A DNA stretch of 64,000 nucleotides from an uncultured Planctomycetales bacterium. GTDB taxonomy: Bacteria > Planctomycetota > MHYJ01 > JACPRB01. Location of the stretch: positions 682 to 64,681 of the forward strand of contig CAZSCC010000566.1 in assembly GCA_964604905.1 (NCBI GenBank), in the 5' to 3' direction. The translations under genes were made by a program, and so were the position numbers. The notes below the pieces were generated by a model. It did no database searches. It saw only the letters and a program-made list of their open reading frames with translations, and was not told the origin of the DNA. Below are positions 9,376 to 52,496 of this stretch, piece after piece; the first letter of the stretch is position 1, and the number at the start of each line of letters is the position of its first letter.

Positions 9376-12126
9376 ATGGGTAAAGAGATCGTCTACTGCT
9401 CGGAGTGCGGGAAGATCATCCGCGAGGCCGACTTCGCCGGGGGGAAGGCCGCCACCCATGAGTGGCGCCCCTACTGCGGGGCGTGCCGGCCGGTGGCGAC
9501 GCCTCCACCCCGCGCTCCCGTGAAGCCCGCGACCTTCCGGACGTCCGTCCCGCCGACCGCTCCCGCGGAACCGGGGGGCGACCGGCGCAAGAGGATCCTC
9601 TTCGGGGGCGGAGCCGCGGCGGCGGCCGCGATCGTCGTCGCCGTTCTCGTCCTGGCCCTTTCGGGCAGGAAGGACGAAGCGCCCCCGGCCCCGGCGCCCG
9701 ATCTCGCGGCCCAGGTCTACAAGGATTTGGAGGGCTACGCCGCTTCGTCCACGGACGCCGAAGGCATCCTGCGCCGCTGCGGCGAGTCGCGCGCGACGCT
9801 CGCGGGCACGGCCCACGAGCGAGGCCTGCGGCGAATCGAGGAACAGGCCCTCAGGATGAAGGAGGCGAAGGAGCGCGAGGCGAAGCTCAATGCGCTCCTC
9901 GAGACGGCGCGCAAGATGCAGGAAGGCGACCCGAAGTTCCAGCGGCAGGACGGGGTCCGCGCTCTGTATGACAGCGCGCTCGAAGTGGCCGGGCCGCGCG
10001 CGGAGGAGATCGGGGAGCTCAAGGCCAGATACGAGAGGAAGGCGAAGGAGGCGGCAGTCGCCGCGCTCCCGAAGGAACAGGCCCCGGCGCCCGCGCCGGC
10101 CGCGGAGATCCCGAACCGGCCCCCGCAGGTGTCCATTACCCGCCCACTCGAAGGCGCGACGTTCAGCTCGCCGGCCGAGGTCGCGATCGTCGCGGACGCA
10201 TCCGACCCGGACGGCAAGGTCGCCCGCGTGGAGTTCTTCCTGGAGGTCGTGAAGCTGGGCGAGGCGAGCTCCGCGCCCTTCTCCATCACGAAGGCCATCG
10301 GCCAGGCCGGCAGCTACGTCCTGACGGCGAAGGCGATCGATGACGCCGGGGCGGAGACGACGTCCGGCCCGGTGACGATCGTCGTGACCCGGGATCTGAA
10401 GCGGGGCCCGTTCAAAGGCGTGGCGGCCTCCGTGCCGGGCACGATCGAGGTCGAGGACTTCGACGAAGGCGGCGAAGGGATCGCCTATCACGTCCTGGGT
10501 CCGACCCCGAAGGAGAGCCCCTATCGGGCCGGCGGCGTGGCCCTGTCGCCCTCGGGCGACGGAGGACTGTGCGTGGTCTCGATGAAGGCGGGCGAGTGGC
10601 TGGAATACACGATCGAGGTCCCGTCCTCCGGGACCTACACGGTCGAGGTCCAGGCGGCCTCGAAAGGGCCCGGCGGGACCTTCCACGTCGAGTTCGGGAA
10701 GGCGGACAAGACGGGGCCGCTGCTGATCCTCGACACGGGCGGTGATCTCTTGTGGAAACCCGTGACAAGGCCCGGGTTCGTCCTCGAGCTCGGCCAACAG
10801 GTCATGCGCCTCGTGATGGACAAGGACGGCCCGTCGAAGGCGGTGGGCTCTTTCAACAGCATCAAGATCGAGAAGGATGCGTCCTCCCCGGAAACCGCCA
10901 AGCCCGCGCTTGCGCCGCCCAAACCCGTCGCCAAGAAGCCGGCCAAGCCCGATCCGTTCCTCCTCAAGGTGGACGAGGCGATCAAGAAGGGGACGGAGTA
11001 CCTCAAGGCCCAGCCGAACATCCACCCGCAGTACAAAGAGCTGGTGATGCTCACGTTCCTCCACGCGGGGGTGCCGGAGAAGGACTCCCGGTTCCAGGAC
11101 CTGCTCAAGCAGTCGCTGGCCTTCACCAACGACGGCTACAGCGCCCGGACCTACAACATCTCGCTTCTCGCGATGGCCCTCGAGGAAATGGACCGCGTGA
11201 CCTACCAGCACGACCTCTACAAGTGCGCGCAGTTCCTGGTCGACAACGAGGCCGCGAACGGCCAGTGGGGCTACGGGTCGCACACGACCTACCTGGACAA
11301 GGTCCCCACGACGTCCGCCAAGAACGTCGCCACGCCCTCGAAGAGCAAGGCGTCGTCGTCGAAGACCCCGCAGGATCCGTACGCACTCTGGACTCCGCGC
11401 GTGAAGCCGCCCCTCCGGTTCAACGTCAAGGTGAAGCCGCAGCGGACCGGGCCCGACCACGGCGACAACTCGAACTCGCAGTACGCCGCCCTCGGCCTGC
11501 GCGCGTGTCATGACGGCGGCATCGTCTTTCCGAGGGAGCTCGTCGAGCGGGCGCGCAAGTGGTGGGTGGATGGCCAGCAGCCGGACGACGCGAAGAAAAA
11601 CAAGCCCGACGTGCCCACGGGGGCCGCGATCGGAGAGCCCCGGGGCTGGGGCTATCTCTCGGACGGGAAGGTGCCGTCGGCGGGCTATTACCACCCTACG
11701 GGCTCGATGACCGCCGGCGCCATCGGCGGCGTGTGCATCTACGACTACATGCTGGGCTTCAACTGGAAGGGCGATCCCTCGGTCCGCGACGGCATGGCGT
11801 GGCTCTCGGAGCACTTCGCGGTGACGGGGAACCCGCTGGAGGAGAAGGGGAAGGCGGGGCCGGACTGGCACTACTACTACCTCTACGCGATCGAGCGCGT
11901 CGGCATGCTCTACGGCACGGCCCAGATCGGGCGCCACGACTGGTACGGCGAAGGCGCCAAGCACCTGCTCGAGAAGCAGCTCGCCGACGGATCCTGGAAC
12001 GGGAGCAAGTACCACGGCAGCCCGGCCCCCGTCCTCGACACCTGCTACGCGATCCTCTTCCTCCGGCGCGTGACACGGCCGCTCGAGGACGTGGCGTCCG
12101 TCGACCCCTTCAAGAGCAAGAGGTAG
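9376..12126 (+). CDS. large multidomain membrane-anchored protein (Zn-ribbon, TM, coiled coil, Ig-like, CBM6-like, prenyltransferase/terpenoid-cyclase-like repeats)
   Basis: CSECG...CGAC at the N-terminus. TM segment AAAAAAIVVAVLVLAL. Ig-like segment PPQVSITRPLEGATF...VARVEFF. CBM6-like GTIEVEDFDEGGEGIAYH...GEWLEYTIEV. C-terminal NGQWGYG / DGSWNG repeats. Confidence 0.8.
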   Translation: MGKEIVYCSECGKIIREADFAGGKAATHEWRPYCGACRPVATPPPRAPVKPATFRTSVPPTAPAEPGGDRRKRILFGGGAAAAAAIVVAVLVLALSGRKDEAPPAPAPDLAAQVYKDLEGYAASSTDAEGILRRCGESRATLAGTAHERGLRRIEEQALRMKEAKEREAKLNALLETARKMQEGDPKFQRQDGVRALYDSALEVAGPRAEEIGELKARYERKAKEAAVAALPKEQAPAPAPAAEIPNRPPQVSITRPLEGATFSSPAEVAIVADASDPDGKVARVEFFLEVVKLGEASSAPFSITKAIGQAGSYVLTAKAIDDAGAETTSGPVTIVVTRDLKRGPFKGVAASVPGTIEVEDFDEGGEGIAYHVLGPTPKESPYRAGGVALSPSGDGGLCVVSMKAGEWLEYTIEVPSSGTYTVEVQAASKGPGGTFHVEFGKADKTGPLLILDTGGDLLWKPVTRPGFVLELGQQVMRLVMDKDGPSKAVGSFNSIKIEKDASSPETAKPALAPPKPVAKKPAKPDPFLLKVDEAIKKGTEYLKAQPNIHPQYKELVMLTFLHAGVPEKDSRFQDLLKQSLAFTNDGYSARTYNISLLAMALEEMDRVTYQHDLYKCAQFLVDNEAANGQWGYGSHTTYLDKVPTTSAKNVATPSKSKASSSKTPQDPYALWTPRVKPPLRFNVKVKPQRTGPDHGDNSNSQYAALGLRACHDGGIVFPRELVERARKWWVDGQQPDDAKKNKPDVPTGAAIGEPRGWGYLSDGKVPSAGYYHPTGSMTAGAIGGVCIYDYMLGFNWKGDPSVRDGMAWLSEHFAVTGNPLEEKGKAGPDWHYYYLYAIERVGMLYGTAQIGRHDWYGEGAKHLLEKQLADGSWNGSKYHGSPAPVLDTCYAILFLRRVTRPLEDVASVDPFKSKR

Positions 12127-12157
12127 CGACTGAAATGGATCGGCGAGGAGGGTCAAG

Positions 12158-13465
12158 ATGAAGGGTTTCACCGTTCTGATCCTTTCCGGGGCGGCCGTCC
12201 TGGGGAGCCCCTTGGCGCTTGGCGCGGACGAGCCCCGGCCGATCCCGCCGGACCGGTTCGACACGCTGCACCAGATGATCAAGCCGCAGCCGGGCGAGCA
12301 ACGCTTCTGGAAGATTCCGTGGAAGCTCAGCATCACGGAAGCCCGGGAGGAGGCGGCGAAGGAGGGGAAGCCGATCTTCGTCTGGGCGGGCGCGGGCGGC
12401 GCCCCGATCGGGGTCTGCTGAGCGGCGGCCTCCGCCGGCCGTGCGCCGGCCATCTGGACCGAAGAGGTCGTCCAGCTGCTCAAGGATAAGTTCGTCTGCG
12501 TGGCCCTCGACGCCCGTAAGGAGCGCGGCGAGTACAAGGATGCCGACGGCGATTTCGTCCGCGCCACCGCGTGTGTCACGGTCACGGCCTCCGGTTCGGT
12601 GTGCGTGGTGACCGCGGGCGCCAGGGCGCTCGGGCCGTACAGCGGTCCCGGACAGGGCATGGACAAGTGGCTGCAGGCCAAGCTCAAGGCCTGGAACGAG
12701 CTTCCGGAGTCCGAGCGCGCCCCCGGCGCCGTGACCGTGCCCAAGCCGGAGTCCGTCGATCCGAAGCGCGCCGCCCTGGCGCTGCCGCCGGGAGCGCTGG
12801 TCGTGCGGGTCTTCAACCGGCACCTCGGCTGGGACAAGGACGGGTCGCTGCGCTTCGTCGTTGCGGAAGACTACCTGCCCGGCGCGAGCAAGACGGAGGT
12901 CGAGCGTTTCGCCATGGCCCAGAACGATTTCATGTGGATCCCCGAAAGGGAATGGCAGGGACTGCTGCCTTCGGAGCCGAAGAAAGGCGAAAGCCGGCCC
13001 GTCCCCGTGTCCTTCGCCCTGCGGCTCTTCAGGTCCCATCTCGACCCGGCGCGGGGCTTCACCGAGGGGGCGAACTTCTCCGATTCCTCTTCCGACGCCG
13101 GCCGGCTGGCCCTGACGGTCCGCGACGTCACGGCGGACAAGCTGCAGCTGATGCTGGAGGGGAAGGCCGACCTCAAGCAACCCGGAAGGGACGAGCCGTC
13201 GACCTACCAGCCGGCCATCCTGGGCTGCCTGGAGTACGATCGAAACAAGAAGGCCTTCACCCGTTTCGACCTGCTGGCGCTGGGGAGCGCCTCCGGACTG
13301 CCGCGCGACGCCAACGGACGGATCGCGTTCCGCCAGGGGGCGTACCCGGTCGGCATCGCCTTCGAGTTGGTCGCCACCCCCACGTCGGCCGAACGGCTCC
13401 ATCCGCGGGGCGCCCGCGACAACCCGGCCGCCTACTTGGAACCGAAGGAAAAGGGAAAGCCATGA
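12158..13465 (+). CDS. secreted thioredoxin-fold protein with in-frame TGA (12419..12421): candidate selenoprotein (CU motif) fused to a C-terminal domain of unknown function
   Basis: Track ORFs 12158..12421 and 12500..13465 are in the same frame, and there is no other stop in 12422..12499. The TGA falls where the thioredoxin CxxC would sit (KPIFVWAGAGGAPIGVC-U-AAAS...IWTEEVVQLLKDKFVCVALD). A GC hairpin at 12434..12450 lies 13 nt downstream. Confidence 0.55.
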
Positions 13466-13613
13466 TGAGGGGGCCGGAGGCGGTTTCGTCGTACGCTTCG
13501 TACTGAAGCCCGTCGAGCGTCTCTGGACCTGAAGAGGGACCCGACTGCCCCTTCCGACTCGCGCCGTTTCCGAGGCGCTGGACTTTTCGTCCGCGGAGAA
13601 GTCTACTTGGGGC

Positions 13614-15017: not shown

Positions 15018-16247
15018 ATGGACATCGCTCGAACGGCCGTCTGGCTCCTGGCTCTTTCCGCGTCCGTTCAAGGGCAGGCGGACGAGGGCCGGGATGGGCC
15101 GCTGAAGGGGCTGCCGAGCGCCGCGGGTCCCCATGCGACCGCGATCCGCGACCTGGCCGACAACCGCTGGGTCGATCTCGGGGCGCCGGCGCCCGACCCG
15201 AAGTGGGGCCGCGCGCCCGGCCGGAGTTGGTGCTGCACGATGCCCTTCGCCCCCGGGGCGCGCGGCGCCTTTCTCTACGGAGAGGGGCAGCACGGGTACG
15301 TCAAGCCCGGCGGCCGGTACATGGACGACTGCTGGTTCTACGACCTCAACGCCCACCGGTGGATCTGCGTCTATCCGGGGACGGACGTGAAAAACCCGGG
15401 GCTCAAGCCCGACGCCGACGGTTTTCCCGTCGACGCGGACGGCCGGCGGACGCCGGTCTCGCTCTGCGTCCACGCGTACGATCTCCTGACCTACGACAGC
15501 GACCTCCACAAGCTCATGATCATGGGGACGCACGAATACCATTTCGCGCCCAAGGCGATCAAGGAGCTTCTTCTCCCGACCGGCAAGGTCCCTCCGAGCA
15601 GTCCGTGGTCCTATGACCTCGGGAAGGGGAAATGGGAGGTGCGCGCGGTCGACGGTCCGTCGCCCGAGAAAGCGGAGGGGACCCTGCTCTACATCCCGGG
15701 AATGAAGAAGGCCTTCTACCGGTCGGGCAAGAGCGAGTTCGTGTGGTTCTACGATCCCGCGACGAACGCCTGGACGCGGGTGACGCCGAAGGGGCCGCGG
15801 CCGCCGTTCGGGATCGACCCGACCTCCTGCCTCGACCCCAAGCGCGGGCGGATCTACATCGGCGGGGGAAGCTACCCGTCCGTCGAGGAGGGGAAGAACG
15901 CCCTCTGGATCTACGACCTCAAGAACGACGCGTGGATCGACCCGCAGCCGAAGGGCACGCCGCTCAGCCATTTCGCGACGACCTACGCCGTGATGCGGTA
16001 CGACCCGGTGGCGGACGTCGTGCTCGTGTCCGCGCACGCGGAGAAGAAGCGGGGGATCCACGTCTACGACCCCTCGGCCAACGCGTGGAAGGAGGAGACC
16101 CTCCCGTTCCCGGAGGGTTTCCCGAAGAAGAGCGTCAACGGCTTCTACGATCCCGAGTGGAACGTGCACGTCTTCCACGTCGCGGGGGACAGCCGGGACG
16201 ACGGCCGGGTCTGGGCGTACCGATACCGCCGCGCGGGGCCGCGCTAG
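15018..16247 (+). CDS. secreted Kelch-like beta-propeller protein
   Basis: Signal peptide. Repeated blades of the form ...W..., e.g. NRWVDLG, HRWICVYPG, NAWTRVTP, DAWIDPQP, NAWKEETL. Confidence 0.7.
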   Translation: MDIARTAVWLLALSASVQGQADEGRDGPLKGLPSAAGPHATAIRDLADNRWVDLGAPAPDPKWGRAPGRSWCCTMPFAPGARGAFLYGEGQHGYVKPGGRYMDDCWFYDLNAHRWICVYPGTDVKNPGLKPDADGFPVDADGRRTPVSLCVHAYDLLTYDSDLHKLMIMGTHEYHFAPKAIKELLLPTGKVPPSSPWSYDLGKGKWEVRAVDGPSPEKAEGTLLYIPGMKKAFYRSGKSEFVWFYDPATNAWTRVTPKGPRPPFGIDPTSCLDPKRGRIYIGGGSYPSVEEGKNALWIYDLKNDAWIDPQPKGTPLSHFATTYAVMRYDPVADVVLVSAHAEKKRGIHVYDPSANAWKEETLPFPEGFPKKSVNGFYDPEWNVHVFHVAGDSRDDGRVWAYRYRRAGPR

Positions 16248-16267
16248 GAGGCGAAGCCCGGCTTTCA

Positions 16268-18589
16268 ATGGAACTTCCGGGGCCTCGCCTCCATACTTAC
16301 TTAGTGATGACCCTGAGAGCGGCCTTCGCTTCCGTCCTCCTCCTTCTGGGCGGAGTCGTCTTCCCGCAGCAGAAGCGCCCCGATCCCGTCGACTTCGCCC
16401 GCGACGTCGAGCCCATCCTCAGGGCCTCCTGCGTCAAGTGCCACGGACCCGAAAAGCCGAAAGCTCAGCTTCGCCTCGACTCGAAACCCCACGCCCTGAA
16501 GGGAGGGGTCGGCGGGCCCGCGATCCTCCCGGGGAAGGGCGCCGAAAGCCCGCTCGTGAAGCTGCTCCTCTCCGCCGATCCCGAAGAGCGCATGCCCCGC
16601 AAGGCGGAGCCGCTGCCCCGCGAGAAGATCGACCTCCTCCGCCGCTGGATCGACGAGGGCGCCGCGTGGCCCGACGCCGGCGCCGCACGGCTCGAGAAGC
16701 ACTGGGCGTACGTGAAGCCCGCGCGCCCCCGGACGCCGCCGGCGAAGGACGCGCCCACGCCGATCGACGCCTTCATCCGCGCGCGGCTCGAGAAAGAGGG
16801 CGTCGCCCCGTCTCCCGAGGCGCCGCGCGAGAAGCTCCTGCGGCGGCTCTGGATCGATCTCATCGGCCTCCCGCCCTCGCCCCGGGAGATCGACGACGCC
16901 CGGGACGAGCCGCTCGAGAAGATCGTCGACCGCCTCCTCGACTCGCCCCACTACGGCGAGCGGTGGGCGCGGACCTGGCTCGACCTCGCGCGGTACGCCG
17001 ACACTAACGGCTTCAACTTCGACAGCCCGCGTTCGATGTGGCGCTACCGCGACTGGGTGATCGACGCGCTCAACCGCGATCTGCCCTTCAGCGACTTCAC
17101 GGTCGAGCAGCTGGCCGGCGACCTCCTTCCGGGCGCGACCCTGGAGCAGAAGGTCGCCACCGGCTTCCACCGGAACACCATGATCAACGAGGAGGGCGGC
17201 GTCGATCGCGAGGAGGCGCGCTGGGAGACGCTCCTCGACCGGGTTCACACCACTGCGACCGTCTGGCTCGGCACCACGCTGGCCTGCGCCCAGTGCCACA
17301 ACCACAAGTTCGATCCCTTCACGCAGAGGGAGTTCTACCGCCTGCTCGCCTTCTTCGACCATCAGGACGAAGTGACGCTCGACTTCCTCCCCCCCGAGCA
17401 GGAGGCGCGGCGGAAGGACCTCAAGGGCGAGGTGTCGAGGCTGAACGCCGTCGTGAAGAACGACCGCACCGACCCCGTGACGATGAAGGACGCGAAGGAC
17501 CGGCTCGCGCGCTGCACGAAGGAGCTCAAGGAGATCGAGGGCGTGTCCACCACCTACGTGCTCCGCGAGAAGCAGACGAAGGAGGTCCCCTCCACGCGAC
17601 TCCGCGTGCGCGGGAGCTTCGAGAACGTGGGCGAGAAGGTCTCGGCCGGCGTCCCGGCGTCGCTCCATGCGTGGCCGGAGGGGGCGCCGCTCAACCGCCT
17701 GGGCCTCGCGCGGTGGCTGGTCGGCGACGAGAACCCGCTCGTCGCGCGCGTCGCGGCCAACCGCCTGTGGGACCAGCTGATGGGGCGGCCCCTCGTCGAA
17801 TCGCCCGAGGACTTCGGCACCCAGGGCCAGCCGCCCCTCCACCGCGAGCTCCTGGACTGGCTGGCGGTCGAGTTCATGGAGAACGGGTGGAGCCAGAAGA
17901 AGCTGCTCCGCACGATCGTCCTCTCCGCCACCTACCGGCAGTCGTCCCGCCTGACGCCGGCGCTCCTCGAGAAGGACCCGTACAACCGCCTCCATGCCCG
18001 CGGGCCGCGCCACCGGCTGGACGCCGAGCCCATCCGCGACGTCGCGCTCACGGCGAGCGGGCTCCTCTCGCGCAAGATCGGCGGCCCCAGCGTCTACCCT
18101 GTCCAGGCCGACATGAGCGGCGTGACGCCGATCAACAAGGTGTCGACCCAGTGGACCCCGAGCGCCGGGGAGGACCGCTACCGCCGCGGCCTCTACACCT
18201 ACTGGCGAAGGACCGCGCCCTTCGCGGCATTCGCCACCTTCGACGCGCCGAGCCGCGAGTGCTGCACCGTCAAGCGGCAGCGGACCAACACGCCGCTCCA
18301 GGCCCTGAGCGGCCTGAACGACCCCGGCTTCTTCGACCTGGCGCGCGGCCTCGCCCGTCGCGCGATCGCGGAGGGGGGCGCGGACGACCGATCGCGGATC
18401 GCCTACGCCTTCCGCTGCTGCACCGCGCGGACCCCCGTGAAGGATGAGATCGACCTGCTCGAGAAGGAGCTGGGCCGCGAGCGGGAGCATTACCGGAATG
18501 GAAAGGGGAAGGGCGACGCGGAGCTCTCGGCCTGGGCGATCGTGGCGAACATCCTCCTCAACCTCGACGAGACGATGAGCCAGGAATGA
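16268..18589 (+). CDS. PSCyt1 / DUF1549 / DUF1553 domain protein (planctomycete cytochrome-c-like)
   Basis: [17 protein letters not shown] (PSCyt1 CxxCH), [11 protein letters not shown], and a long DUF1553-type C-terminus. Starts at ATG 16268 or ATG 16307; the track ORF upstream of 16268 overlaps the previous gene. Confidence 0.9.
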
Positions 18590-20004
18590 ACCCCGAAGAT
18601 CTCAAGGCGGTCACGCGGCGCCACTTCTTCTCGAGGAGCGCCTGCGGGATCGGCACGCTCGCGCTGGGTTCGCTCCTCCAGGAGGGCCTCTTCGCGGGGG
18701 ACGAGCGGAATCCGCACCACGCCCCGAAGGCGAAGCGGATCCTCTACCTCTTCATGATGGGCGCCCCCTCGCAGATCGACCTCTTCGATCCGAAGCCGAA
18801 GCTCGAGGAGCTGCACGACAAGCCGATCCCGGAGGAGATGATCAAGGGGCAGCGCTTCGCGTTCATCAAGGGGACGCCGAAGGTGCTGGCGTCCCCCTAC
18901 AAGTTCCAGAGGCACGGCCGGTCGGGCGCGACGATCTCGGAGCTGCTCCCCCACACGGCGTCGATCGTCGACGAGCTCGCGATCGTGCGCTCGATGCACA
19001 CGGACCACTTCAACCACGGACCGGCGCAGATCTACATGAACACGGGCCACCAGATCCCCGGCCGGCCGAGCATGGGGTCGTGGACGACGTACGGCCTGGG
19101 AAGCGAGGGGCGCGACCTGCCGGGCTTCGTCGTGCTCGTCTCGGGGAAGATCGACCCCGGCGCCGGCGCGGCCTGCTGGTCGAGCGGCTTCATCCCGAGC
19201 AGCTACCAGGGCGTCGAATTCCGCTCGAAGGGCGACCCGGTGCTCTCGGTCTCGAACCCGGAAGGGGTCGACCCGGAGGTGCGGCGTCGGTCGATCGACG
19301 CGATCGAGGCGCTCAACCGGAAGCGTCTCGAGGAGACGGGCGACCCCGAGATCGCCACCCGCATCGCGGCGTACGAGATGGCCTACCGGATGCAGATGAG
19401 CGTGCCGGAGCTGGTCGACCTCTCGAAGGAGCCCAAGTGGGTCCACGAGATGTACGGCACGGAGCCCGGGAAGGCGTCGTTCGCGAACAACTGCCTCCTC
19501 GCCCGGCGGCTCCTTGAGCGCGGCACGCGGTTCGTCCAGCTCTATCACCGCGGCTGGGACCATCACGGGACCGACGCGAGCGACGACCTGATGAGCGGCC
19601 TCCCCGCGCTCTGCCGGCAGACCGACCAGGCCACGGCGGCGCTGATCCGGGACCTGAAGGCGCGGGGGCTCCTCGAGGACACGCTGGTGATCTGGGGCGG
19701 CGAGTTCGGGCGGACGCCCATGAACGAGTCGCGCGCCGCCGGGAAGTTCCTCGGTCGCGACCACCACCCGCGCGCGTTCACGGTCTGGCTGGCCGGCGGG
19801 GGCATCAAGCCGGGGATCTCGATCGGCGCGACCGACGAGCTCGGCTACAACGTGGTCGAGGACGCGGTCCACGTCCACGATCTCCACGCGACCGCACTCC
19901 ATCTGATGGGCATCGACCACACGAAGCTGACCTATCGTTTCCAGGGCCGGGACTACCGGCTGACCGACGTGCACGGAAAGGTGGTGGACAAGCTGCTTGC
20001 GTAG
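18586..20004 (+). CDS. DUF1501 domain protein (sulfatase-like fold, Tat signal)
   Basis: Twin-arginine signal [28 protein letters not shown] and GRDHH motifs. ATGA start/stop overlap with the preceding gene. Confidence 0.9.
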
Positions 20005-21608: not shown

Positions 21609-23657
21609 TCAGGCGGACTGTTGCGACATCTCCAGCAGCGCCGCGGTCAGCGCGCCCTTGGCGGTCGCGTTGAGCGGGTCCTTTGCCAGGCGGACCTCCT
21701 TCACGGGGATCGGGAAGTCCAGGTCCTTGAAGATCGTGCGGACGAGCTCGATGAAATTTCCCGCGAGGGCGGTGCCGCCCGAGAAGACCATCGTGATCGG
21801 GTCGGCGAAGGTCGGCATGTTCTCGGCGGCGCGGAATCGCTCGGCGATGTTGCTGAGGTTGTACTGGATCAGGTTGCGGTAGTAGATGGCGATGGCGTCC
21901 TCCTCGCGGGTCCTCGGGTTCATGAGGTCCACGCCCTTCTCCTTGATGAGCGCCGCCCTTGCGGGCTTCATGTTGAGCGTCTGTCCGACGTTGAGGTCGA
22001 TCCAGTCGCCGCTCCGCGCGGTCGAGAAGGTGAGCGCCGGCATCGACATGTACGCCACGCAGACGTTGAACATGCCGCCGCCGCAGGAGACGCCGATGCC
22101 GGTGAAGTCCTCGTCGGCCAGCTCGGAGAACGTCACGGCGTGGCCCTCGATGATGTGGCGCGGCGTGTAGCCCAGCGCCCTGAGCACCGCGTCGAAGAGG
22201 TCGCGGTGGTAGGCGACGGAGAGGTCGGCGTCCACCGGTTCGCCGGGGACCGAGTAGAAGCACGATTCGCCCGTGACCCGCGGCTCGCCCAGGATCGACC
22301 CGATCAGGAGCTTCATGATGGGGAGCGCGTCCGTCTCCTTGGGCGAGATGAGCCCGTCCTTCATGGGCCGGCGCGTGTTGCGGTTGAGGACGTTGGCCAG
22401 CTCGAAGGCCTGCTCGCCCAGGACGTACATGCGGCTGCCCTGCATGAAGTAGGGGACGTTGAGCCGCGTCAGCATCGACTTCGTATAGGCCGTCGTCTCG
22501 ACGTCGATGAACGCGTTCCGGGCGAGGCGGAGCTCGACCTCGCCCTGCACGTTCTGCTCCGCGGCGACGAGGTTGACGGTCCCGATGTCGAGGCCCTTGC
22601 CGGTGAGGAGTTGGCCCGCCTTGGCGGCGGCCTTCCTCCGCTCGAGGAGCACGATCGGGATCCGCTTGGGCCCGCGGGCCTTCTCCTCCTCTTCGGCGCG
22701 GCGCGCGGCCTCCTCGGCTTCGGCGCGGGCCTTCGCCTCCTCCTCGGCACGGATCGCCTCCGCGGCCTCGGTCTCGGCCTGTTCCGCGGCGCGGCGTGCT
22801 TCCGCCGCGGCCTCGGCCTCGGCCCTGGCCTTCGCTTGTTCTTCGGCGCGGCGGGCGGCCACGGCCTCTGCCTCGACCCGCGTCTTCTCTTCTTCCTCGG
22901 CGCGGCGCGCCACGTCGGCTTCGGCCTCGGCCTGTTCCGCGGCGCGGGTCCTCTGCTCCTCCTCCTCGGCACGGCGGTCCCCCGCCTGCTTGGCGTCCTG
23001 CGCCTTCTGCTGCTCGCCCTCGAGCTGGGTCCGGAGCGAGTCCACCTCCTGGAGGGCGTCGTCGAGCTCCTGGGAGGCGCCGGCCTGCTCGTCCGCCTTC
23101 GCCCGCAGGGCCTCGAGCTCGCGCGTGAGCCGGTCGATCTCCGCCTGGAGCCTCTTGATCTCGCTCTGCGCCTTGTCCAGCTCCTCGACCATGCGATCGT
23201 GCTCCTCGCGGAGCCAGACGTTGTCCGCGAGGGACTCCTTGAGCTTGGATTCCGTGGCCTGCTGGCGGTCGATGATGTCCTTGAGCTGGGTCTTGAAGTC
23301 GGACTCGCCCTCCTCCTCGATCTGGCGGCGGAGCTTGAGCTCGTTCTGGAGTTTCTCGATCTGCGCGACGAGGTCGGTCTTGCCGGCCTCGAGCAGGTTC
23401 GCCCGGGAACCGAACTGGTCGCGCTCGGCCATGAGCTTGGAGAGTTGCTTGCGGGAGTCGGCCAGGATCTTGGTGCGCTCCTCCGCGGTCTGCGTGGAGA
23501 TGACCAGGTCGACGGCCCGCTCGATCATCTCCTGGAGCGCGGCCTCGTCGAGCACCTTGACGTTCCGCACCCCCATGCTGGCGAGGTTGGAGACCGTCGT
23601 GTGCTGCGCGCCCTGGTCGATGACCTTCTTGATGTCGAGCCGTCTGTCGTTCGCCAT
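21609..23657 (-). CDS. actin/MreB-fold (ASKHA) ATPase with a long N-terminal coiled-coil / EA-rich extension
   Basis: C-terminal ~330 aa carry GLDIGTVNLV, RPMKDGLI, GIGVSCGGGMFNV, MVFSGGTALAGNF and AKDPLNATAKGA in MreB order. The N-terminal ~350 aa are heptad-like and E/A/R/K/Q-rich. Confidence 0.8.
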   Translation of the reverse strand: MANDRRLDIKKVIDQGAQHTTVSNLASMGVRNVKVLDEAALQEMIERAVDLVISTQTAEERTKILADSRKQLSKLMAERDQFGSRANLLEAGKTDLVAQIEKLQNELKLRRQIEEEGESDFKTQLKDIIDRQQATESKLKESLADNVWLREEHDRMVEELDKAQSEIKRLQAEIDRLTRELEALRAKADEQAGASQELDDALQEVDSLRTQLEGEQQKAQDAKQAGDRRAEEEEQRTRAAEQAEAEADVARRAEEEEKTRVEAEAVAARRAEEQAKARAEAEAAAEARRAAEQAETEAAEAIRAEEEAKARAEAEEAARRAEEEEKARGPKRIPIVLLERRKAAAKAGQLLTGKGLDIGTVNLVAAEQNVQGEVELRLARNAFIDVETTAYTKSMLTRLNVPYFMQGSRMYVLGEQAFELANVLNRNTRRPMKDGLISPKETDALPIMKLLIGSILGEPRVTGESCFYSVPGEPVDADLSVAYHRDLFDAVLRALGYTPRHIIEGHAVTFSELADEDFTGIGVSCGGGMFNVCVAYMSMPALTFSTARSGDWIDLNVGQTLNMKPARAALIKEKGVDLMNPRTREEDAIAIYYRNLIQYNLSNIAERFRAAENMPTFADPITMVFSGGTALAGNFIELVRTIFKDLDFPIPVKEVRLAKDPLNATAKGALTAALLEMSQQSA
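22674..22979 (-). repeat. in-frame imperfect tandem repeats encoding an EA-rich low-complexity tract
   Basis: Protein residues ~227-328: RRAEEEEQRTRAAEQAEAEA / RRAEEEEKTRVEAEA / RRAEEQAKARAEAEA / RRAAEQAETEA / RAEEEAKARAEAEEAARRAEEEEKAR. DNA words such as ctcggcctgttccgcggcgcgg occur twice. Confidence 0.8.
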
Positions 23658-30832: not shown

Positions 30833-32215
30833 ATGAAGCGGCGCGAGTTCCTCCGGGCCGGACTCTCCGGGTTCGCGAGCCTCTCGCTCCCGGGGCTCTT
30901 CCGTCTGCGCGCGGCGACGGCCCAGGAGGCGAAGCCCAGGACGGCCGTCATCCTGGTCTGGCTGCGCGGAGGGGCCTCCCACCTCGAGACGTACGACCCC
31001 AAGCCCGAGGCGTCGTCCGAATTCCGCGGCATCTTCGGCCCCCTCTCCACGCGCGTGCCCGGCCTGCGGGTCAGCGAACTGCTCCCGCTCCACGCGAAGA
31101 TCGCCGACAAGTTCACGCTGGTCCGCTCGATGTCCCACACCGGCGGAGGCCATCCGGCCGGCTCGCTCCAGATGCTCGGCGGCGATCCCGACCCGCAGGA
31201 CAAGCAGCGGCCGATCTATCCCGACTGGATGACGGTGGCCAACCTGCTGCGCGCCGACCGCGCCCGTCCGCTGCCGAACTACGTCGGCGTGAACCCGGTC
31301 TCCACCTACGACGGCTTCGTCATCGCGGGCTCCGGCTACGTGAGCCCGGCTTACGGCCCCTTCTCCGTGACGGGCGACCCCAGCGACCCCCGCTTCGAGG
31401 TCCCCAACATCGGCCTCCGGGACCCGGCCCAGGCGGAGCGGCTCGGCGAGCGTGTCCGGCTCAGCCGACGGCTCGACGGCCTCGCGCGGGCCGCGGATCA
31501 CTCGGGGGCGATGAAGACGATCGACGACTTCGAGGGGCAGGCGCTCAAGCTCCTGACCAGCCCCTCGGCCCGGGAGGCCTTCGACCTGACGCGCGAGCCG
31601 GACCGCGTCCGCGACCGCTACGGCCGCCACGCCTGGGGGCAGCAGTGCCTCATGGCCCGCCGGCTCGTCGAAGCCGGCGTGGAGATCGTCACGACGACCT
31701 TCGACGGCCCGCTCTGCGGGCGTGTCGGCAACTGGGACGACCACGCGGTCAACCACCACATCTTCGACGCGATGAAGTTCAGGGCGCCCGTCTTCGACCA
31801 GGCCGTCAGCGCCCTGATCGAGGACGTCACCGCGCGGGGCCTGGACAAGCGGGTGCTCGTGGTCGTCACCGGCGAGTTCGGTCGGACGCCGCGCCTGACC
31901 GAGGTGGCCAGCAGCGGCGGCGGGGTCGCGAGCGGCCCGGTGGGGACGGTCCAGCCCGGCCGCGACCACTGGCCGCGGGCCTTCTCGCAGCTTTGGGCGG
32001 GCGGCGGCATCGAGACGGGCTGCGTGATCGGCGCCACGGACAAGCGGGGCGAGGAGGTGGTCGAGCGGAGGTTCTCGACCGGGGATTTCCTGGCCACGAT
32101 CTACCGCCATCTGGGCATCCCGGCGGAGCAGGTGGCGCTCCCCGATTTCTCCGGGCGGCCCACGCCGATCCTCACCCACGGCGCGCCGATCCCGGAGTTG
32201 AAGGGACGGTCCTGA
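30833..32215 (+). CDS. DUF1501 domain protein (Tat signal)
   Basis: MKRREFLRAGLSGFASL twin-arginine signal, TGEFGRTPR, GRDHW. Confidence 0.9.
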   Translation: MKRREFLRAGLSGFASLSLPGLFRLRAATAQEAKPRTAVILVWLRGGASHLETYDPKPEASSEFRGIFGPLSTRVPGLRVSELLPLHAKIADKFTLVRSMSHTGGGHPAGSLQMLGGDPDPQDKQRPIYPDWMTVANLLRADRARPLPNYVGVNPVSTYDGFVIAGSGYVSPAYGPFSVTGDPSDPRFEVPNIGLRDPAQAERLGERVRLSRRLDGLARAADHSGAMKTIDDFEGQALKLLTSPSAREAFDLTREPDRVRDRYGRHAWGQQCLMARRLVEAGVEIVTTTFDGPLCGRVGNWDDHAVNHHIFDAMKFRAPVFDQAVSALIEDVTARGLDKRVLVVVTGEFGRTPRLTEVASSGGGVASGPVGTVQPGRDHWPRAFSQLWAGGGIETGCVIGATDKRGEEVVERRFSTGDFLATIYRHLGIPAEQVALPDFSGRPTPILTHGAPIPELKGRS

Positions 32216-50892: not shown

Positions 50893-51609
50893 ATGAACCG
50901 ATGGGCATTGATCCTGGCGCCGCTGTTCCTGGCGTGCGTCCATCAGGAGGACAAGCTTCCTCCTCCGCCCGACCCGCTTTACGAGACGCGCGCGAAGCAC
51001 GATCCGAACGGGATCGGCAAGTTCTACATGGATCGCGAGATCGCGCACGTGATGGGGCCCGGCGGGATCCCCTGGCTGGAGCGCCCGGAGCGGGAGGACG
51101 AGGAGCGGCCCACCAAGGTCATCGAGGCCCTGGGGCTCAAGGGGGACGAGGTGGTCTGCGACCTGGGAGCCGGGAGCGGCTACTACACGTTCCGACTGGC
51201 TCCGAAGCTCCCCAAGGGGAAGGTCCTCGCCGTCGAGATCCAGGACGACATGATCAAGGAGCTCAAGAAGAACATCGAGTCGAAGAAGACCACGAACGTC
51301 GAGATCATCAAGGGGGAGGAGAAGGATCCGAAGCTCCCGGAGAAGGGCGTGGACCTGCTCCTCATGGTCGACGTCTACCACGAGCTGGCGTTCCCCTACG
51401 AGACGATGCTGGCGATCAGGAAGGGGCTCAAGCCGGGGGCGCGGGTCGTGCTCGTCGAGTTCCGCAAGGAGGACCCGAAGGTCCCGATCAAGGAAGTGCA
51501 CAAGATGTCGGAGGAGCAGATCAAGAAGGAGATGGCGGTCGTGGGGCTCACGCACGTGAAGACGGTGGGGACGCTGCCGTGGCAGCACATCGCCATCTAC
51601 AGGAGATAG
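50893..51609 (+). CDS. class I SAM-dependent methyltransferase with lipoprotein-type signal
   Basis: LFLAC lipobox and motif I VCDLGAGSGYYT. 238 aa. Confidence 0.8.
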   Translation: MNRWALILAPLFLACVHQEDKLPPPPDPLYETRAKHDPNGIGKFYMDREIAHVMGPGGIPWLERPEREDEERPTKVIEALGLKGDEVVCDLGAGSGYYTFRLAPKLPKGKVLAVEIQDDMIKELKKNIESKKTTNVEIIKGEEKDPKLPEKGVDLLLMVDVYHELAFPYETMLAIRKGLKPGARVVLVEFRKEDPKVPIKEVHKMSEEQIKKEMAVVGLTHVKTVGTLPWQHIAIYRR

Positions 51610-51655
51610 GGAGATAGGGGAGATTAGGAGATAAGAGAAGAGGAGAAGAGGGGAT
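51601..51655 (+). repeat. C-free polypurine-rich tract with four GGAGAT(A/T) units at 8-9-nt spacing
   Basis: aGGAGATAgGGAGATAggGGAGATTaGGAGATAagagaagaggagaagagggga. By my count, 49 of 55 positions are purines and there is no C. It overlaps the methyltransferase stop (51607..51609). Confidence 0.8.
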
Positions 51656-51737
51656 CCGAGAGGAAAATATTATAGGGCACGGGGCAGGCCATACGTGAGG
51701 GAGCGGCGTATACTCCCCCAGACGGAGGGTGACTGGA

Positions 51738-52496
51738 ATGAAGATGCTCTCGATGGCTGCGGTGGCGCTGGCGCTCATGGCCTCCTCGGCCCTGGCGGGC
51801 GGCGGCGGGAAGATCAAATTCAGCGAGGGGAAGCAGCACGACCAACTCCTCGCCGAGGCGAAGGCGAGCGGCACGCCCGTCATGCTCTACTTCACGGGCG
51901 AGGGGTGAGTGTACTGCAAGCAGCTGGACGCAGGTGCGTTCTCCGACGACAAGGTGGTCAAGGCCTCGGAAGGGTTGATCCGGATCCTGGTCGACAACGG
52001 CAAGGACGGGAAGCTCTTCCAGAAGTACAACATCAGCGGCATGCCGACGATCCTCTTCCTCGACGCGGAAGGCAAGCAGGTGGGCTCGCTCGGGGACCGG
52101 AGCGCCGGCGGCGTGGAGAAGCAGCTGACCGAGATCGTCTCCAAGCACAGCCGGGCCCCGCAGTGGACGGCGGGCGCCGACGCGACGGTGACGGCGGCGA
52201 AGGACGGCTCCAAGCCCGGGGTGCTCGTCTTCGTGGACGACAAGCCCAAGTCGCAGCTGTTCCTCAAGATCTTCAGCGATCCGGCGCTGGCCTCGCTCTA
52301 CGAGAAGGCCTCGTTCGGGAAGGTCGAGTTCAAGAAGGACTCGGAGGAGTGCAAGAAGTGGAAGGTGACGGAGGCGCCGGTCTGCCTGATCGTCGATCCT
52401 GCGGATGAATCGAAGCCGCTCAAGACGTGGAAGAGCGGGACGGCCAAGGCGCTCGCCAAGGAGATCGAGGAGGCCGCCAAGAAGCTGAAGAAGTGA
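51738..52496 (+). CDS. secreted thioredoxin-fold protein with in-frame TGA (51906..51908): candidate selenoprotein with UxxC redox motif
   Basis: The ATG at 51738 (GGAGGG 8 nt upstream) opens signal peptide MKMLSMAAVALALMASSALA, then ...GTPVMLYFTGEG-TGA-VYCKQLDAGAFSDDKVV... The track ORF 51909..52496 is in the same frame and starts on the codon right after the TGA. Confidence 0.7.

What the first reader, a model, noticed from the sequence alone, without database searches (positions are those of the whole stretch)
12158..13465. Second in-frame UGA in a thioredoxin-like N-terminal domain, giving an unusual Cys-Sec (C-U) dyad with a GC hairpin 13 nt downstream
Seen in sequence: ORF 12158..12421 and ORF 12500..13465 share one frame, and the only stop between them is TGA 12419..12421. 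ORF 12158..12421 encodes a signal peptide and then ..ITEAREEAAKEGKPIFVWAGAGGAPIGVC. Read-through gives ..PIGVC-U-AAASAGRAPAIWTEEVVQLLKDKFVCVALD.. The flanks align with the other candidate (AEAKASGTPVMLYF..U..F-S-DDKVV): the U is 12 residues before the conserved aromatic here, versus 11 there. That places it at the position of the N-terminal catalytic Cys of the fold. There is no Cys at +3; instead a Cys directly precedes the U. Downstream of the UGA, GCCGGC-CGUGC-GCCGGC (12434..12450) forms a 6-bp GC stem with GU in the loop. An alternative stem is CGGCGG-CCU-CCGCCG (12423..12437). Inference: this is a 435-aa secreted selenoprotein whose thioredoxin-like head is fused to a ~330-aa domain of unknown function. 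A CU redox dyad in a bacterial thioredoxin fold is not a type I can name, so it is either novel or a pseudogene.
Basis: partly seen in the sequence, partly recalled or inferred. Interest (0 to 1): 0.75.

Follow-up and report, generated by a model that had tools for sequence, protein, structure and literature searches.

The report
New secreted selenoprotein family in Planctomycetota
The apparent stop codon at 12419 is almost certainly read as selenocysteine, so the two ORFs are one 435-residue secreted protein that belongs to a large planctomycete selenoprotein family I could not find in any current catalogue.

Summary
ORF 12158..12421 and ORF 12500..13465 share one frame and are separated only by TGA 12419-12421.

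The TGA is conserved, not accidental:
- 45 of 46 homologous N-terminal domains in the window and 39 public loci carry TGA at this column, never TAA or TAG.
- Protein similarity and third-codon-position variation continue across it.
- A hairpin starts 13 nt downstream (GCCGGC-CGUGC-GCCGGC). It meets the published bacterial SECIS constraints, covaries across subfamilies, and places a rare CGU Arg codon in its loop.

The family has over 1,100 clusters at 50% identity, nearly all annotated as split genes. Rare full-length relatives have Cys (2), Arg, Ser, Asp, Gly, Ala or Asn at the site.

Isosphaera pallida carries a member and is reported to have selA, selB, selC and selD.

Structure prediction gives a thioredoxin fold of the DsbH/DUF255/AGR type. 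Sec88 lies in the active-site turn, and the C-terminal beta-rich domain matches no solved structure.

No NCBIfam or Pfam model, and none of the 119 families in a 2026 inventory, corresponds to it.

The redox motif is C-U (35 of 45), C-x-U (7) or U without a nearby Cys (3). Biochemical function is still inferred. No sel genes lie in this window.

The parts
12146..12151 (+). Shine-Dalgarno-like AGGAGG, 6 nt before the ATG
   Evidence: Read directly from the sequence.
12158..13465 (+). Full coding sequence: 435 codons including Sec88, plus the terminal TGA (followed by a second TGA at 13466-13468)
   Evidence: One frame with a single internal TGA. GC3 is 0.88-0.92 throughout. tblastn matches to query residues 1-432 run across the stop in other genomes.
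12158..12226 (+). Putative Sec-type signal peptide (MKGFTVLILSGAAVLGSPLALGA, cleavage inferred after ALG-A)
   Evidence: Read by eye. Homologous N-terminal fragments all start with a comparable hydrophobic leader. Not tested with a predictor.
12245..12712 (+). N-terminal thioredoxin-fold domain (about residues 30-185): beta1 73-78, turn with C87-U88, helices 90-94 and 102-111, beta2 113-118, beta3 147-151, beta4 157-160, helix 168-180
   Evidence: AF2 full model has pLDDT 90.1 and pTM 0.89. The domain model hits 3ira, AGR3, AGR2, ERp18, 7tkv and DsbH with Foldseek probability 1.00 and TM 0.5-0.64. Pfam Thioredoxin_7 is sub-threshold at E 1.4e-3.
12416..12418 (+). Cys87 codon (TGC), vicinal partner of Sec
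   Evidence: Cys is at -1 in 35 of 45 family members and at -2 in 7 of 45.
12419..12421 (+). Sec-UGA (residue 88)
   Evidence: TGA sits at this column in 45 of 46 homologous domains, never TAA or TAG. Cys occupies it in P0279 and P0387.
12434..12450 (+). Bacterial SECIS-type hairpin: 6-bp stem GCCGGC/GCCGGC with apical loop CGUGC (12440-12444), 18 nt between the UGA and the loop
   Evidence: It meets the bSECIS constraints of PMC13188914 Fig. 2. Covariation score is 0.449 against 0.10-0.16 for slid controls, with 80.7% of cells paired against 39-48%. RNAalifold finds the same helix. The loop Arg codon is CGT in 28 of 38 members, although CGT is 2.7% of Arg codons in this window. Synonymous sites inside the hairpin are frozen among 9 orthologues.
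12440..12442 (+). Arg95 codon CGU, which supplies the G-U of the apical loop; Arg is nearly invariant in the protein family
   Evidence: R-type (non-Sec) paralogues use CGC here.
12770..13432 (+). C-terminal beta-rich domain (about residues 205-425) of unknown function, with motifs NRxLGR, NDxMW, HLDPxRG, TRFDxVALG and GIAFELV
   Evidence: It is confidently modelled, but no PDB match has E below 0.06. There is no Pfam or NCBIfam hit. 1,141 representative clusters match its profile.

Best explanation
12158..13465 is a single gene for an exported 435-residue selenoprotein.

Decoding (inferred from sequence, and strongly supported). During translation the UGA at 12419 is decoded as selenocysteine. 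SelB carrying Sec-tRNA(Sec) binds the hairpin at 12434-12450, whose apical loop CGUGC lies 18 nt after the UGA. That brings Sec-tRNA to the A site as the ribosome reaches the UGA.

Product (predicted). The protein has a signal peptide, a thioredoxin-fold domain of the DsbH/DUF255/AGR type, and a novel beta-rich domain packed against it. Sec88 with its neighbour Cys87 occupies the turn before helix alpha1, where thioredoxins carry CxxC.

Chemistry (inference). Sec88 is the reactive nucleophile of an extracytoplasmic redox centre that cycles through a vicinal Cys87-Sec88 selenenylsulfide. In other subfamilies the partner is a Cys two residues back, or an external thiol. The C-terminal domain holds the substrate or ligand.

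The gene belongs to a large family spread across Planctomycetota that public annotation splits into an ~87-aa and a ~320-aa hypothetical protein.
For: **Conserved recoding site**
- 45 of 46 homologous domains have TGA at the column.
- All of the roughly 120 best C-terminal homologues are truncated just after it. All of the roughly 120 best N-terminal homologues end at it.
- Adjacent locus tags AYO44_14105 and AYO44_14110 show how GenBank splits the gene.

**Coding continues through the TGA**
- Amino-acid identity runs across it in tblastn.
- GC3 is 0.88 in the 26 codons that precede any start codon.
- Variable sites by codon position in those codons are 11, 8 and 19.

**SECIS**
- The window hairpin passes all four published constraints.
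- 28 of 45 family sites pass, against 5.6% of background codons.
- Stem pairs change on both sides in 6 of 7 pairs across subfamilies with different peptide sequences.
- The rare CGU codon sits in the loop.
- Third positions inside the stem are frozen, while those flanking it vary.
- The two Arg-type paralogues examined use CGC, and neither has the register-conserved CGUG-loop hairpin. L007 has essentially no local structure (-1.9 kcal/mol); L043 folds differently at -10.4 kcal/mol.

**TGA is not reassigned.** 17 of 48 GC3-supported ORFs in the window end in TGA.

**Cys/Sec pairing.** P0279 and P0387 have G-C-T-C where relatives have G-C-T-U. P0387 is 66% identical to the Tautonia Sec form.

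**Sec machinery in a carrier**
- Isosphaera pallida Isop_3654 is the N-terminal fragment of a member. Its locus reads through TGA to 465 aa with hairpin GCGGGC-CGUGC-GCUCGC.
- I. pallida and Gemmata obscuriglobus are reported to have selA, selB, selC and selD (PMC4807772 Table S8).
- The window holds a second, canonical U-x-x-C candidate with a SECIS-like hairpin.

**Fold:**
Against: - No selA, selB, selD or tRNA-Sec was found in this 64-kb window. Ten ORFs were scanned with Pfam and ARAGORN was run. Sec decoding in this particular genome is therefore inferred.
- Of ten full-length non-Sec relatives (nine distinct lineages, since P0106, P0108 and P0243 are all Arg-type), only two have Cys. The others have Arg, Ser, Asp, Gly, Ala or Asn. 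That is unusual for a catalytic Sec.
- 17 of 45 family hairpins fall short of -7.5 kcal/mol when only a perfect upper stem is counted, and two sites gave none under my strict search.
- The codons in the stem encode conserved Ala, Gly, Arg and Pro. Part of the stem's conservation could therefore be protein-level.
- The thioredoxin domain lacks CxxC and has no conserved cis-Pro before beta3. It is below Pfam's threshold.
- Function is untested: gene neighbourhoods are not conserved.
- pLDDT is only 68-75 around residues 81-100.
Confidence: 0.85

Rival explanations
1. The TGA is a true stop. An 87-aa secreted peptide and a separately initiated ~321-aa protein are two adjacent genes, as public annotations have them.
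For: Gene callers everywhere annotate two ORFs. A GTG at 12500 with AAGGA about 13 nt upstream could serve as a start.
Against: - The two parts are always in the same frame, and the stop is always TGA.
- The 26 codons between the TGA and the first start codon are conserved as protein and show coding periodicity.
- Annotated starts of the C-terminal ORFs differ from genome to genome.
- The thioredoxin fold is only complete when both parts are joined: beta1 is before the TGA, and alpha1 to alpha3 are after it.
- Full-length relatives exist as single ORFs.
- The C-terminal part would lack the signal peptide.
Confidence: 0.03
2. The UGA is recoded but not as Sec. The downstream hairpin stimulates stop-codon read-through by a near-cognate tRNA (for example Trp, Cys or Arg), giving a mixture of short and long products.
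For: Non-Sec relatives carry varied residues, including Arg (CGC), rather than mostly Cys. sel genes are not visible in the window. Hairpins downstream of stops can promote read-through (general knowledge).
Against: - The hairpin has the specific bSECIS features: spacing of 18-23 nt, a small loop, and G followed by U or G in the first two loop positions, held there by a rare codon.
- The site lies in the active-site turn of a thioredoxin fold, next to a Cys.
- Cys forms exist.
- A carrier species has the full Sec machinery.
- A second, canonical U-x-x-C gene is in the same window.
Confidence: 0.06
3. Pseudogene or sequencing/assembly error at this codon (really TGC or TGG).
For: It is a single in-frame stop in an otherwise intact ORF.
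Against: The same TGA is present in 44 other independently assembled homologues at 25-87% identity. Over 1,000 clusters are truncated at the same point. Purifying selection acts on both sides.
Confidence: 0.01
4. This rival concerns function and accepts Sec. Cys-Sec is not a catalytic redox pair but a soft-metal or metalloid ligand site (Cu(I), Hg(II), As or Se species), or a redox- or ligand-sensing site. The protein would be a periplasmic binding or sensor protein rather than an oxidoreductase.
For: - Most catalogued bacterial C-U selenoproteins belong to organometallic or metal-binding contexts: SaoL, HgcA, MbdU and Csac_0668 (PMC13188914 Table 1).
- Non-Sec relatives of the whole module are fused to an ECF sigma factor (P0260) and a Ser/Thr kinase (P0331), so the module can act as an extracytoplasmic sensor domain.
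- P0266 sits next to ECF sigma and FecR genes.
- The fold's nearest solved relatives, AGR2 and AGR3, are CxxS proteins that act by binding partners.
- There is no conserved cis-Pro or CxxC.
Against: There are no metal-resistance or transport neighbours in the six contexts with listed gene calls. Three members have no Cys near the U, so a two-ligand site is not universal. A thioredoxin fold with Sec in the active-site turn is the commonest design of redox selenoproteins (PMC13188914).
Confidence: 0.25

Closest known systems
Thioredoxin_7 / Thioredox_DsbH (DUF255) thioredoxin-like domains (PF13899, PF03190; structures 3ira, 7tkv, DsbH 2ju5)
   Same: These are the best sequence and structure relatives of the N-terminal domain. 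The profile hits 3ira at E 1e-3. Foldseek gives probability 1.00 and TM 0.50-0.53. They share the N-terminal 'W..(A)..A..(E)GKP-I/L-hydrophobic strand' signature and the helix 'F/W..e.v..l....FV.v.vD'. They are also often N-terminal heads fused to another domain.
   Different: - Below Pfam's gathering score: 19.1 against 27 bits.
- The loop between beta1 and the active site is 4-6 residues longer.
- CxxC is replaced by C-U, C-x-U or U.
- No conserved cis-Pro.
- The C-terminal partner domain is unrelated to the (alpha/alpha)6 domain of DUF255 proteins.
AGR2 / AGR3 / ERp18 (TXNDC12) family of secreted or ER thioredoxin-fold proteins
   Same: They are among the top structural matches: 3ph9, 9i3u and 1sen, with TM up to 0.64 on the target. 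They have a single reactive residue in the active-site turn (CxxS in AGR2 and AGR3) and sit in a secretory location.
   Different: They are eukaryotic and have no Sec, no C-terminal beta domain and no detectable close sequence relationship (E 0.04-1.8).
Catalogued thioredoxin-like bacterial selenoproteins (Trx UxxC, thiol:disulfide interchange UxxC, Trx7/PDZ CxxU, VPGUxxT, Sec.1 CxU / Sec.2 UxC, SaoT, HUIPC)
   Same: A Trx fold with Sec in or next to the CxxC turn. A SECIS hairpin lies inside the coding sequence just after the UGA. Public annotation splits them (PMC13188914).
   Different: No NCBIfam model of any of these scores the protein (0 families at E<=1). The motif is C-U. The C-terminal domain is new. 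Cys forms are rare, whereas for most families they predominate (general knowledge).
Bacterial C-U motif selenoproteins (SaoC, SaoL, HgcA, KCU-star/DUF466, MbdU, Csac_0668 2Fe-2S; SaoB CUxxT)
   Same: Adjacent Cys-Sec (PMC13188914 Table 1).
   Different: The folds and contexts are unrelated, and there is no NCBIfam hit. None is listed there as a thioredoxin fold.
C-terminal Gly-Cys-Sec-Gly redox centre of mammalian thioredoxin reductase
   Same: This is a 'works like' comparison only. A vicinal Cys-Sec forms an eight-membered selenenylsulfide ring that shuttles electrons (established biochemistry, cited from memory).
   Different: No homology. In TrxR the dyad is on a flexible C-terminal tail of a flavoenzyme; here it is in the active-site turn of a Trx fold. 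Not tested.

Membership tests
Bacterial selenoprotein (SelB/SECIS-dependent UGA decoding) | In-frame UGA conserved at the same codon among homologues, with coding conservation on both sides | tested here: met
   45 of 46 domains have TGA. tblastn identity runs across it. GC3 and codon-position variation support coding on both sides.
Bacterial selenoprotein (SelB/SECIS-dependent UGA decoding) | bSECIS hairpin: 3-9 nt apical loop, 4-16 bp upper stem, G in the first two loop positions, 16-37 nt from the UGA, MFE <= -7.5 kcal/mol (PMC13188914 Fig. 2) | tested here: met
   In the window the loop is CGUGC, the stem 6 bp, the spacing 18 nt and the energy -11.2 kcal/mol. 28 of 45 family sites pass, against 5.6% of background codons. 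Covariation is shown.
Bacterial selenoprotein (SelB/SECIS-dependent UGA decoding) | Cys-containing homologues aligned to the UGA | tested here: inconclusive
   Two Cys forms were found (P0279, P0387). The other eight full-length non-Sec relatives have Arg (three), Ser, Asp, Gly, Ala or Asn.
Bacterial selenoprotein (SelB/SECIS-dependent UGA decoding) | selA, selB, selC and selD present in the same genome | not testable with these tools
   None were found in the window, but only 64 kb is available. Indirect support comes from I. pallida, which carries a member and is reported to have all four genes (PMC4807772 Table S8). The window also has a second U-x-x-C candidate.
Bacterial selenoprotein (SelB/SECIS-dependent UGA decoding) | Selenium demonstrated in the polypeptide (75Se labelling or mass spectrometry) | not testable with these tools
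   This needs an experiment.
Thioredoxin fold (Thioredoxin_7 / DsbH-like) | beta-alpha-beta-alpha-beta-beta-alpha topology and structural similarity to solved thioredoxin-fold proteins | tested here: met
   The AF2 element order fits the fold. The top 50 Foldseek hits are dominated by Trx-fold proteins, the best with probability 1.00 and TM 0.5-0.64.
Thioredoxin fold (Thioredoxin_7 / DsbH-like) | Score above Pfam's gathering threshold for PF13899 or PF03190 | tested here: not met
   19.1 and 13.3 bits, against a cut-off of 27.
Thioredoxin fold (Thioredoxin_7 / DsbH-like) | CxxC (or UxxC/CxxU) active-site motif at the N-terminus of helix alpha1 | tested here: not met
   The motif is C-U-A-A-A-S, with no Cys at +3 or -3. 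Family-wide it is C-U, C-x-U or U alone.
Thioredoxin fold (Thioredoxin_7 / DsbH-like) | Conserved cis-proline immediately before strand beta3 | tested here: not met
   No Pro is conserved in the columns preceding beta3 (..TASGSVCVVTA..) in the 29-sequence alignment A6.
Catalogued prokaryotic selenoprotein families (NCBIfam models; 119 families of PMC13188914; BSepDB) | Match to a family model or a listed family description | tested here: not met
   NCBIfam release 20 gives 0 hits at E<=1. No entry of Table 1 fits. The BSepDB paper does not mention Planctomycetes. The databases themselves could not be queried.

The most novel reading that the evidence does not exclude
This would be an obligate-selenium, Planctomycetota-wide family of exported proteins. 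It has over 1,000 sequence clusters and up to six tandem Sec-encoding paralogues in one locus, and Cys cannot normally replace Sec. The Trx-like C-U head together with the new beta domain would carry out a so far undescribed extracytoplasmic chemistry. The same module, having lost Sec, would have been recruited as the sensor domain of ECF sigma factors and Ser/Thr kinases. That would make these bacteria among the most selenoprotein-rich known and would reveal a hidden selenium dependence of planctomycetes.
Probability: 0.3. Interest if true: 0.8.

Novelty: new variant of a known kind. Interest (0 to 1): 0.66.

Why it matters
- **Annotation.** Every public annotation I saw splits these genes into two hypothetical proteins. 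The selenoproteomes of Planctomycetota (Gemmatales, Isosphaerales, Pirellulales, Phycisphaerae) are therefore under-counted, possibly by many genes per genome.
- **Catalogue.** No corresponding family appears in the 119-family inventory published in 2026, and NCBI has no model for one. A model built from the alignment here would correct thousands of records.
- **Biochemistry.** A vicinal Cys-Sec in the active-site turn of a thioredoxin fold is a motif not listed for that fold. Cys variants are rare, which suggests a reaction for which sulfur is a poor substitute.
- **Testability.** Cultured carriers exist (Isosphaera pallida ATCC 43644, Thermogemmata fonticola, Tautonia sp. JC769), so the prediction can be tested directly.

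Tried and rejected
- **Rfam, gathering threshold, whole window:** no family, so no curated SECIS model applies.
- **ARAGORN on the window and 43 loci:** no tRNA-Sec.
- **Pfam on 10 further ORFs chosen by size for SelA, SelB or SelD:** ordinary planctomycete genes (Volactin, DUF1501, 6PGD, PfkB and others), with no sel genes.
- **Whole-protein Foldseek against PDB:** nothing significant (best E 0.06, TM <=0.16). The C-terminal domain therefore stays unassigned. Only the separately modelled N-terminal domain gave thioredoxin hits.
- **Conserved neighbours:** contexts differ in each locus (PSD/DUF1501, sulfatases, unknowns), so no operon-based function is possible.
- **DNA of the Cys form P0279 and the Ser form P0266:** not retrievable because the sample files were too large. 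'Hairpin absent when TGA is absent' was therefore tested on only two Arg-type paralogues.
- **Alignments A3 and A4:** these mixed N-terminal and C-terminal fragments, were misaligned by MAFFT and were discarded.
rejected as not conserved.
- **Global TGA reassignment:** rejected because 17 of 48 ORFs end in TGA.
- **Literature searches:** no description of this family was found. One 'hypothetical' selenoprotein candidate of strain P1 in PMC4807772 Table S9 could not be compared.
Full report
**The observation**

- An ATG at 12158 follows AGGAGG (12146-12151). One reading frame runs to the TGA at 13463-13465.
- The only interruption is TGA 12419-12421. Read through, it gives a 435-residue product: ..KEGKPIFVWAGAGGAPIGVC(87)-U(88)-AAASAGR(95)APAIW(100)TEEVVQLLKDKFVCVALD...
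- The window is 69% G+C. Its real genes have GC3 near 0.9.
- In this frame GC3 is 0.92 before the TGA, 0.88 in the 26 codons between the TGA and the first possible start (GTG 12500), and 0.89 afterwards. The other two frames give 0.46-0.69.
- TGA is an ordinary stop here: 17 of 48 GC3-supported ORFs in the window end with it.

**The stop is conserved, and it is always TGA**

- A search with the read-through protein found more than 120 relatives. Nearly all are 300-335 aa and cover only the last ~75% of the query. Their annotated starts are scattered over the 10-25 residues after the TGA.
- A search with the N-terminal part found more than 120 proteins of ~87 aa that all end at ..GAPIGVC.
- One GenBank record shows the two halves as adjacent locus tags, AYO44_14105 and AYO44_14110.
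- Fetching DNA for 39 loci from GTDB species genomes allowed a direct check. They are almost all Planctomycetota: Gemmataceae, Isosphaeraceae (Tautonia), Pirellulales and Phycisphaeraceae, plus a few probably mis-binned MAGs.
- tblastn aligns across the stop in the same frame in every case. The codon is TGA in 45 of 46 homologous domains at 25-87% identity, never TAA or TAG. Four further loci agree.
- The one exception is a paralogue type with Arg (..GNC-R-WSV..).
- Among nine close orthologues, variable sites by codon position are 23/23/55 upstream, 11/8/19 in the 26 'linker' codons and 50/43/93 downstream. That is purifying selection on one continuous reading frame.

This excludes a pseudogene, a sequencing error and two independent genes.

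**The hairpin behaves as a bacterial SECIS**

The review PMC13188914 (Fig. 2) gives four consensus constraints:
- an apical loop of 3-9 nt on a 4-16 bp stem;
- a G, mostly followed by G or U, in the first two loop positions;
- 16-37 nt between the UGA and the loop;
- MFE <= -7.5 kcal/mol.

The window's GCCGGC-CGUGC-GCCGGC (12434-12450) meets all four: 6 bp, loop CGUGC, spacing 18 nt, -11.2 kcal/mol.

The same test gives these results elsewhere:
- With perfect stems only, 28 of 45 family sites pass, against 5.6% of 12,013 in-frame codons in this window's own genes.
- 43 of 45 sites have a G[G/U]-loop hairpin. The spacing is 18-23 nt in all but one, which is at 31 nt.

Covariation across subfamilies, on an alignment of 38 sites (A2):
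- The helix is paired in 80.7% of cells, against 39-48% when the 3' arm is slid by 1-3 columns.
- The covariation score is 0.449, against 0.10-0.16 for the slid controls.
- Six of seven pairs show double changes. RNAalifold predicts the same helix on its own.
- The stems are kept in subfamilies whose peptides differ completely there (..SAGRAP....VLDRES....GGNRSG..). Protein constraint alone does not explain them.

Two further observations point to selection on the RNA:
- The Arg codon in the loop is CGU in 28 of 38 members, although CGU makes up 2.7% of Arg codons in this window.
- Among nine orthologues the third positions inside the stem-loop are invariant, apart from one G-C to G-U change. 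The four third positions before the hairpin and the one after it all vary.

The two Arg-type paralogues examined use CGC at both places, and neither has the register-conserved CGUG-loop hairpin. L007 has essentially no local structure (-1.9 kcal/mol); L043 folds differently at -10.4 kcal/mol. That is only n=2.

**Cys forms and Sec machinery**

- An exhaustive profile search found 1,141 representative clusters at 50% identity. About 143 of the best 150 are N-terminally truncated.
- Seven of the best 150 hits are full-length, and together with P0106 and P0108 and a later hit they show what replaces U. It is Cys in P0279 and P0387 (G-C-T-C against G-C-T-U; P0387 is 66% identical to the Tautonia Sec form). 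It is Arg, Ser, Asp, Gly, Ala or Asn in the others.
- So the classical Cys/Sec pairing exists but is rare. I record that criterion as inconclusive rather than met.
- The window has no tRNA-Sec, and the ten ORFs I scanned are not sel genes. Sixty-four kilobases cannot settle this.
- Indirectly, Isosphaera pallida ATCC 43644 gene Isop_3654 is the N-terminal fragment of a member. Its locus reads ..GHPLGCT-TGA-NNGIAGR.. through to 465 aa, with hairpin GCGGGC-CGUGC-GCUCGC.
- I. pallida and Gemmata obscuriglobus are reported to possess selA, selB, selC and selD (PMC4807772, text and Table S8).
- The window's other candidate (TGA 51906..FTGEG-U-VYC..) matches DsbD, TsoB and thioredoxin models. It has a hairpin GGACGC-AGGU-GCGUUC 23 nt downstream.

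**What the protein looks like**

- AlphaFold2 on a 90-sequence alignment gives pLDDT 90.1 and pTM 0.89.
- Residues ~30-185 have the order beta1 (73-78), turn (79-89, containing C87-U88), alpha (90-94, 102-111), beta2 (113-118), alpha (119-137), beta3 (147-151), beta4 (157-160), alpha (168-180). That is a thioredoxin fold.
- Modelled alone (pLDDT 76), the domain's Foldseek hits are dominated by thioredoxin-fold proteins. The top ones are 3ira (DUF255-type), AGR3, AGR2, ERp18, Brucella 7tkv (Thioredox_DsbH) and DsbH. Probability is 1.00 and TM is 0.5-0.64.
- By sequence the relationship is weak. Pfam Thioredoxin_7 scores 19 bits against a cut-off of 27. The family profile hits 3ira at E 1e-3. 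hhalign to the in-window U-x-x-C protein gives 75.5% probability.
- Those two alignments place U88 at the first or second 'x' of CxxC, not on the first Cys. The beta1-to-active-site loop is 4-6 residues longer than in relatives. I therefore say only that U88 lies in the active-site turn.
- There is no CxxC and no conserved cis-Pro.
- Across 45 Sec members the motif is C-U in 35, C-x-U in 7, and [L/V/A]-T-U without a nearby Cys in 3. Sec is the invariant. Arg95 is nearly invariant.
- The C-terminal ~230 residues form long antiparallel strands and are confidently modelled. They match nothing in the PDB (best E 0.06), Pfam or NCBIfam.

**Mechanism and function**

- *Shown or strongly supported:* SelB/SECIS-type decoding of UGA 12419 as Sec, and a single exported polypeptide.
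- *Inferred:* Sec88 is the nucleophile of an extracytoplasmic redox centre that cycles through a Cys87-Sec88 selenenylsulfide. This works like the GCUG centre of mammalian thioredoxin reductase, without homology. The beta domain provides the substrate or ligand site.
- *Serious functional rival (about 0.25):* a soft-metal or metalloid binding or sensing site.
  - Most catalogued bacterial C-U selenoproteins are in organometallic or metal contexts.
  - Non-Sec versions of the whole module are fused to an ECF sigma factor (P0260) and to a Ser/Thr kinase (P0331), so it serves there as an extracytoplasmic sensor domain.
  - One non-Sec copy lies next to ECF sigma and FecR genes.
- Gene neighbourhoods of Sec forms are not conserved and give no help.

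**Comparison with what is known**

- The protein scores against no NCBIfam model at E<=1. These models include those behind nearly all catalogued selenoprotein families.
- None of the 119 families and subfamilies in the 2026 inventory fits a Trx-like C-U protein with this C-terminal domain.
- The BSepDB paper covers 111 known families and does not mention Planctomycetes.
- Literature searches found only a 2016 report of other selenoproteins in planctomycetes.
- I therefore regard it as an uncatalogued selenoprotein family: a new variant of the commonest kind (thioredoxin-fold, SECIS in the coding region).
- It is distinguished by its motif, its second domain, the scarcity of Cys forms and lineage-specific expansion. 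One Gemmataceae MAG contig carries six tandem copies, each with the TGA.
- I could not query BSepDB or recent supplementary lists directly, so prior mention somewhere cannot be excluded.

**Verdict**

- Observation confirmed.
- Interpretation supported, with two corrections: the exact position of U relative to CxxC, and the fact that C-U dyads are known outside Trx folds.
- Confidence that this is a Sec-decoded single gene of a conserved family is about 0.85-0.9.
- Confidence in the redox-catalyst reading of its function is about 0.45.

Noticed in passing
L011:1-8745 (SHZY01000147.1, Gemmataceae MAG Baikal-deep-G160); also L014: A tandem array of six paralogues of the family, about 1.36 kb apart. 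Each has the in-frame TGA (at 125, 1487, 2846, 4253, 5607 and 6958) and belongs to a different motif subfamily (C-U and C-T-U types). A seventh copy is on another contig of the same MAG.
   Followed up: partly
window 51738..52496 (TGA at 51906-51908): This is the other selenoprotein candidate, ..MLYFTGEG-U-VYCKQLD... With U replaced by C it matches TsoB, DsbD, DsbH and thioredoxin NCBIfam models (all hits below NCBIfam's curated cut-offs). It has a hairpin GGACGC-AGGU-GCGUUC 23 nt after the UGA (-6.7 kcal/mol for the perfect stem). It supports Sec decoding in this genome.
   Followed up: partly
window 51600..51680: A purine-rich, low-GC tract with GGAGATA/GGAGAAG-like repeats, followed by an AT-rich stretch, immediately upstream of the second candidate. 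It is very unlike the 69% G+C surroundings.
   Followed up: no
P0260 (709 aa) and P0331 (812 aa), metagenomic relatives: Non-Sec versions of the whole two-domain module are C-terminal to an ECF sigma-70 factor (Sigma70_r2/r4) and to a Ser/Thr protein kinase. They have C-D and C-V-A at the Sec position. The module apparently doubles as an extracytoplasmic sensor domain.
   Followed up: partly
L044:3001-4398 (identical to Isosphaera pallida ATCC 43644 Isop_3654 plus the next ORF): A cultured, completely sequenced species carries a C-T-U member: TGA at 3370-3372, hairpin GCGGGC-CGUGC-GCUCGC, 465 aa when read through. GenBank annotates only fragments.
   Followed up: yes
L043:87-1385 and L043:6001-7275 (Thermogemmata fonticola-type contig): A Sec-type copy (86 aa plus 321 aa ORFs) and the Arg-type full-length paralogue P0106 lie 5 kb apart. 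Several ~420-460-aa proteins without Pfam hits and two sulfatases lie between and around them. L007 has the same Sec-type and Arg-type pair in tandem.
   Followed up: partly
window 9376..12126 (+): The upstream neighbour is a 916-aa protein. It has an N-terminal Cys-rich zinc-ribbon-like segment, a membrane anchor, Big_7 and CBM6/CBM35 domains, and a ~400-aa C-terminal region without a Pfam hit.
   Followed up: no
window 21609..23657 (-); 18586..20004 (+); 30833..32215 (+); 15632..18589 (+): Typical planctomycete gene content: a Volactin-domain protein, two DUF1501 proteins, and an ORF at 15632..18589 (Pfam not run) whose translation looks like a planctomycete cytochrome/DUF1553-type protein. 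This fits a Gemmatales-like origin of the window.
   Followed up: no
P0389 (157 aa, metagenomic): This protein begins with the post-Sec part of a C-T-U member and ends with ..ERDGKPILLWEMDGHPLGCT, the pre-Sec motif. It looks like a chimeric assembly or a junction of tandem copies.
   Followed up: no
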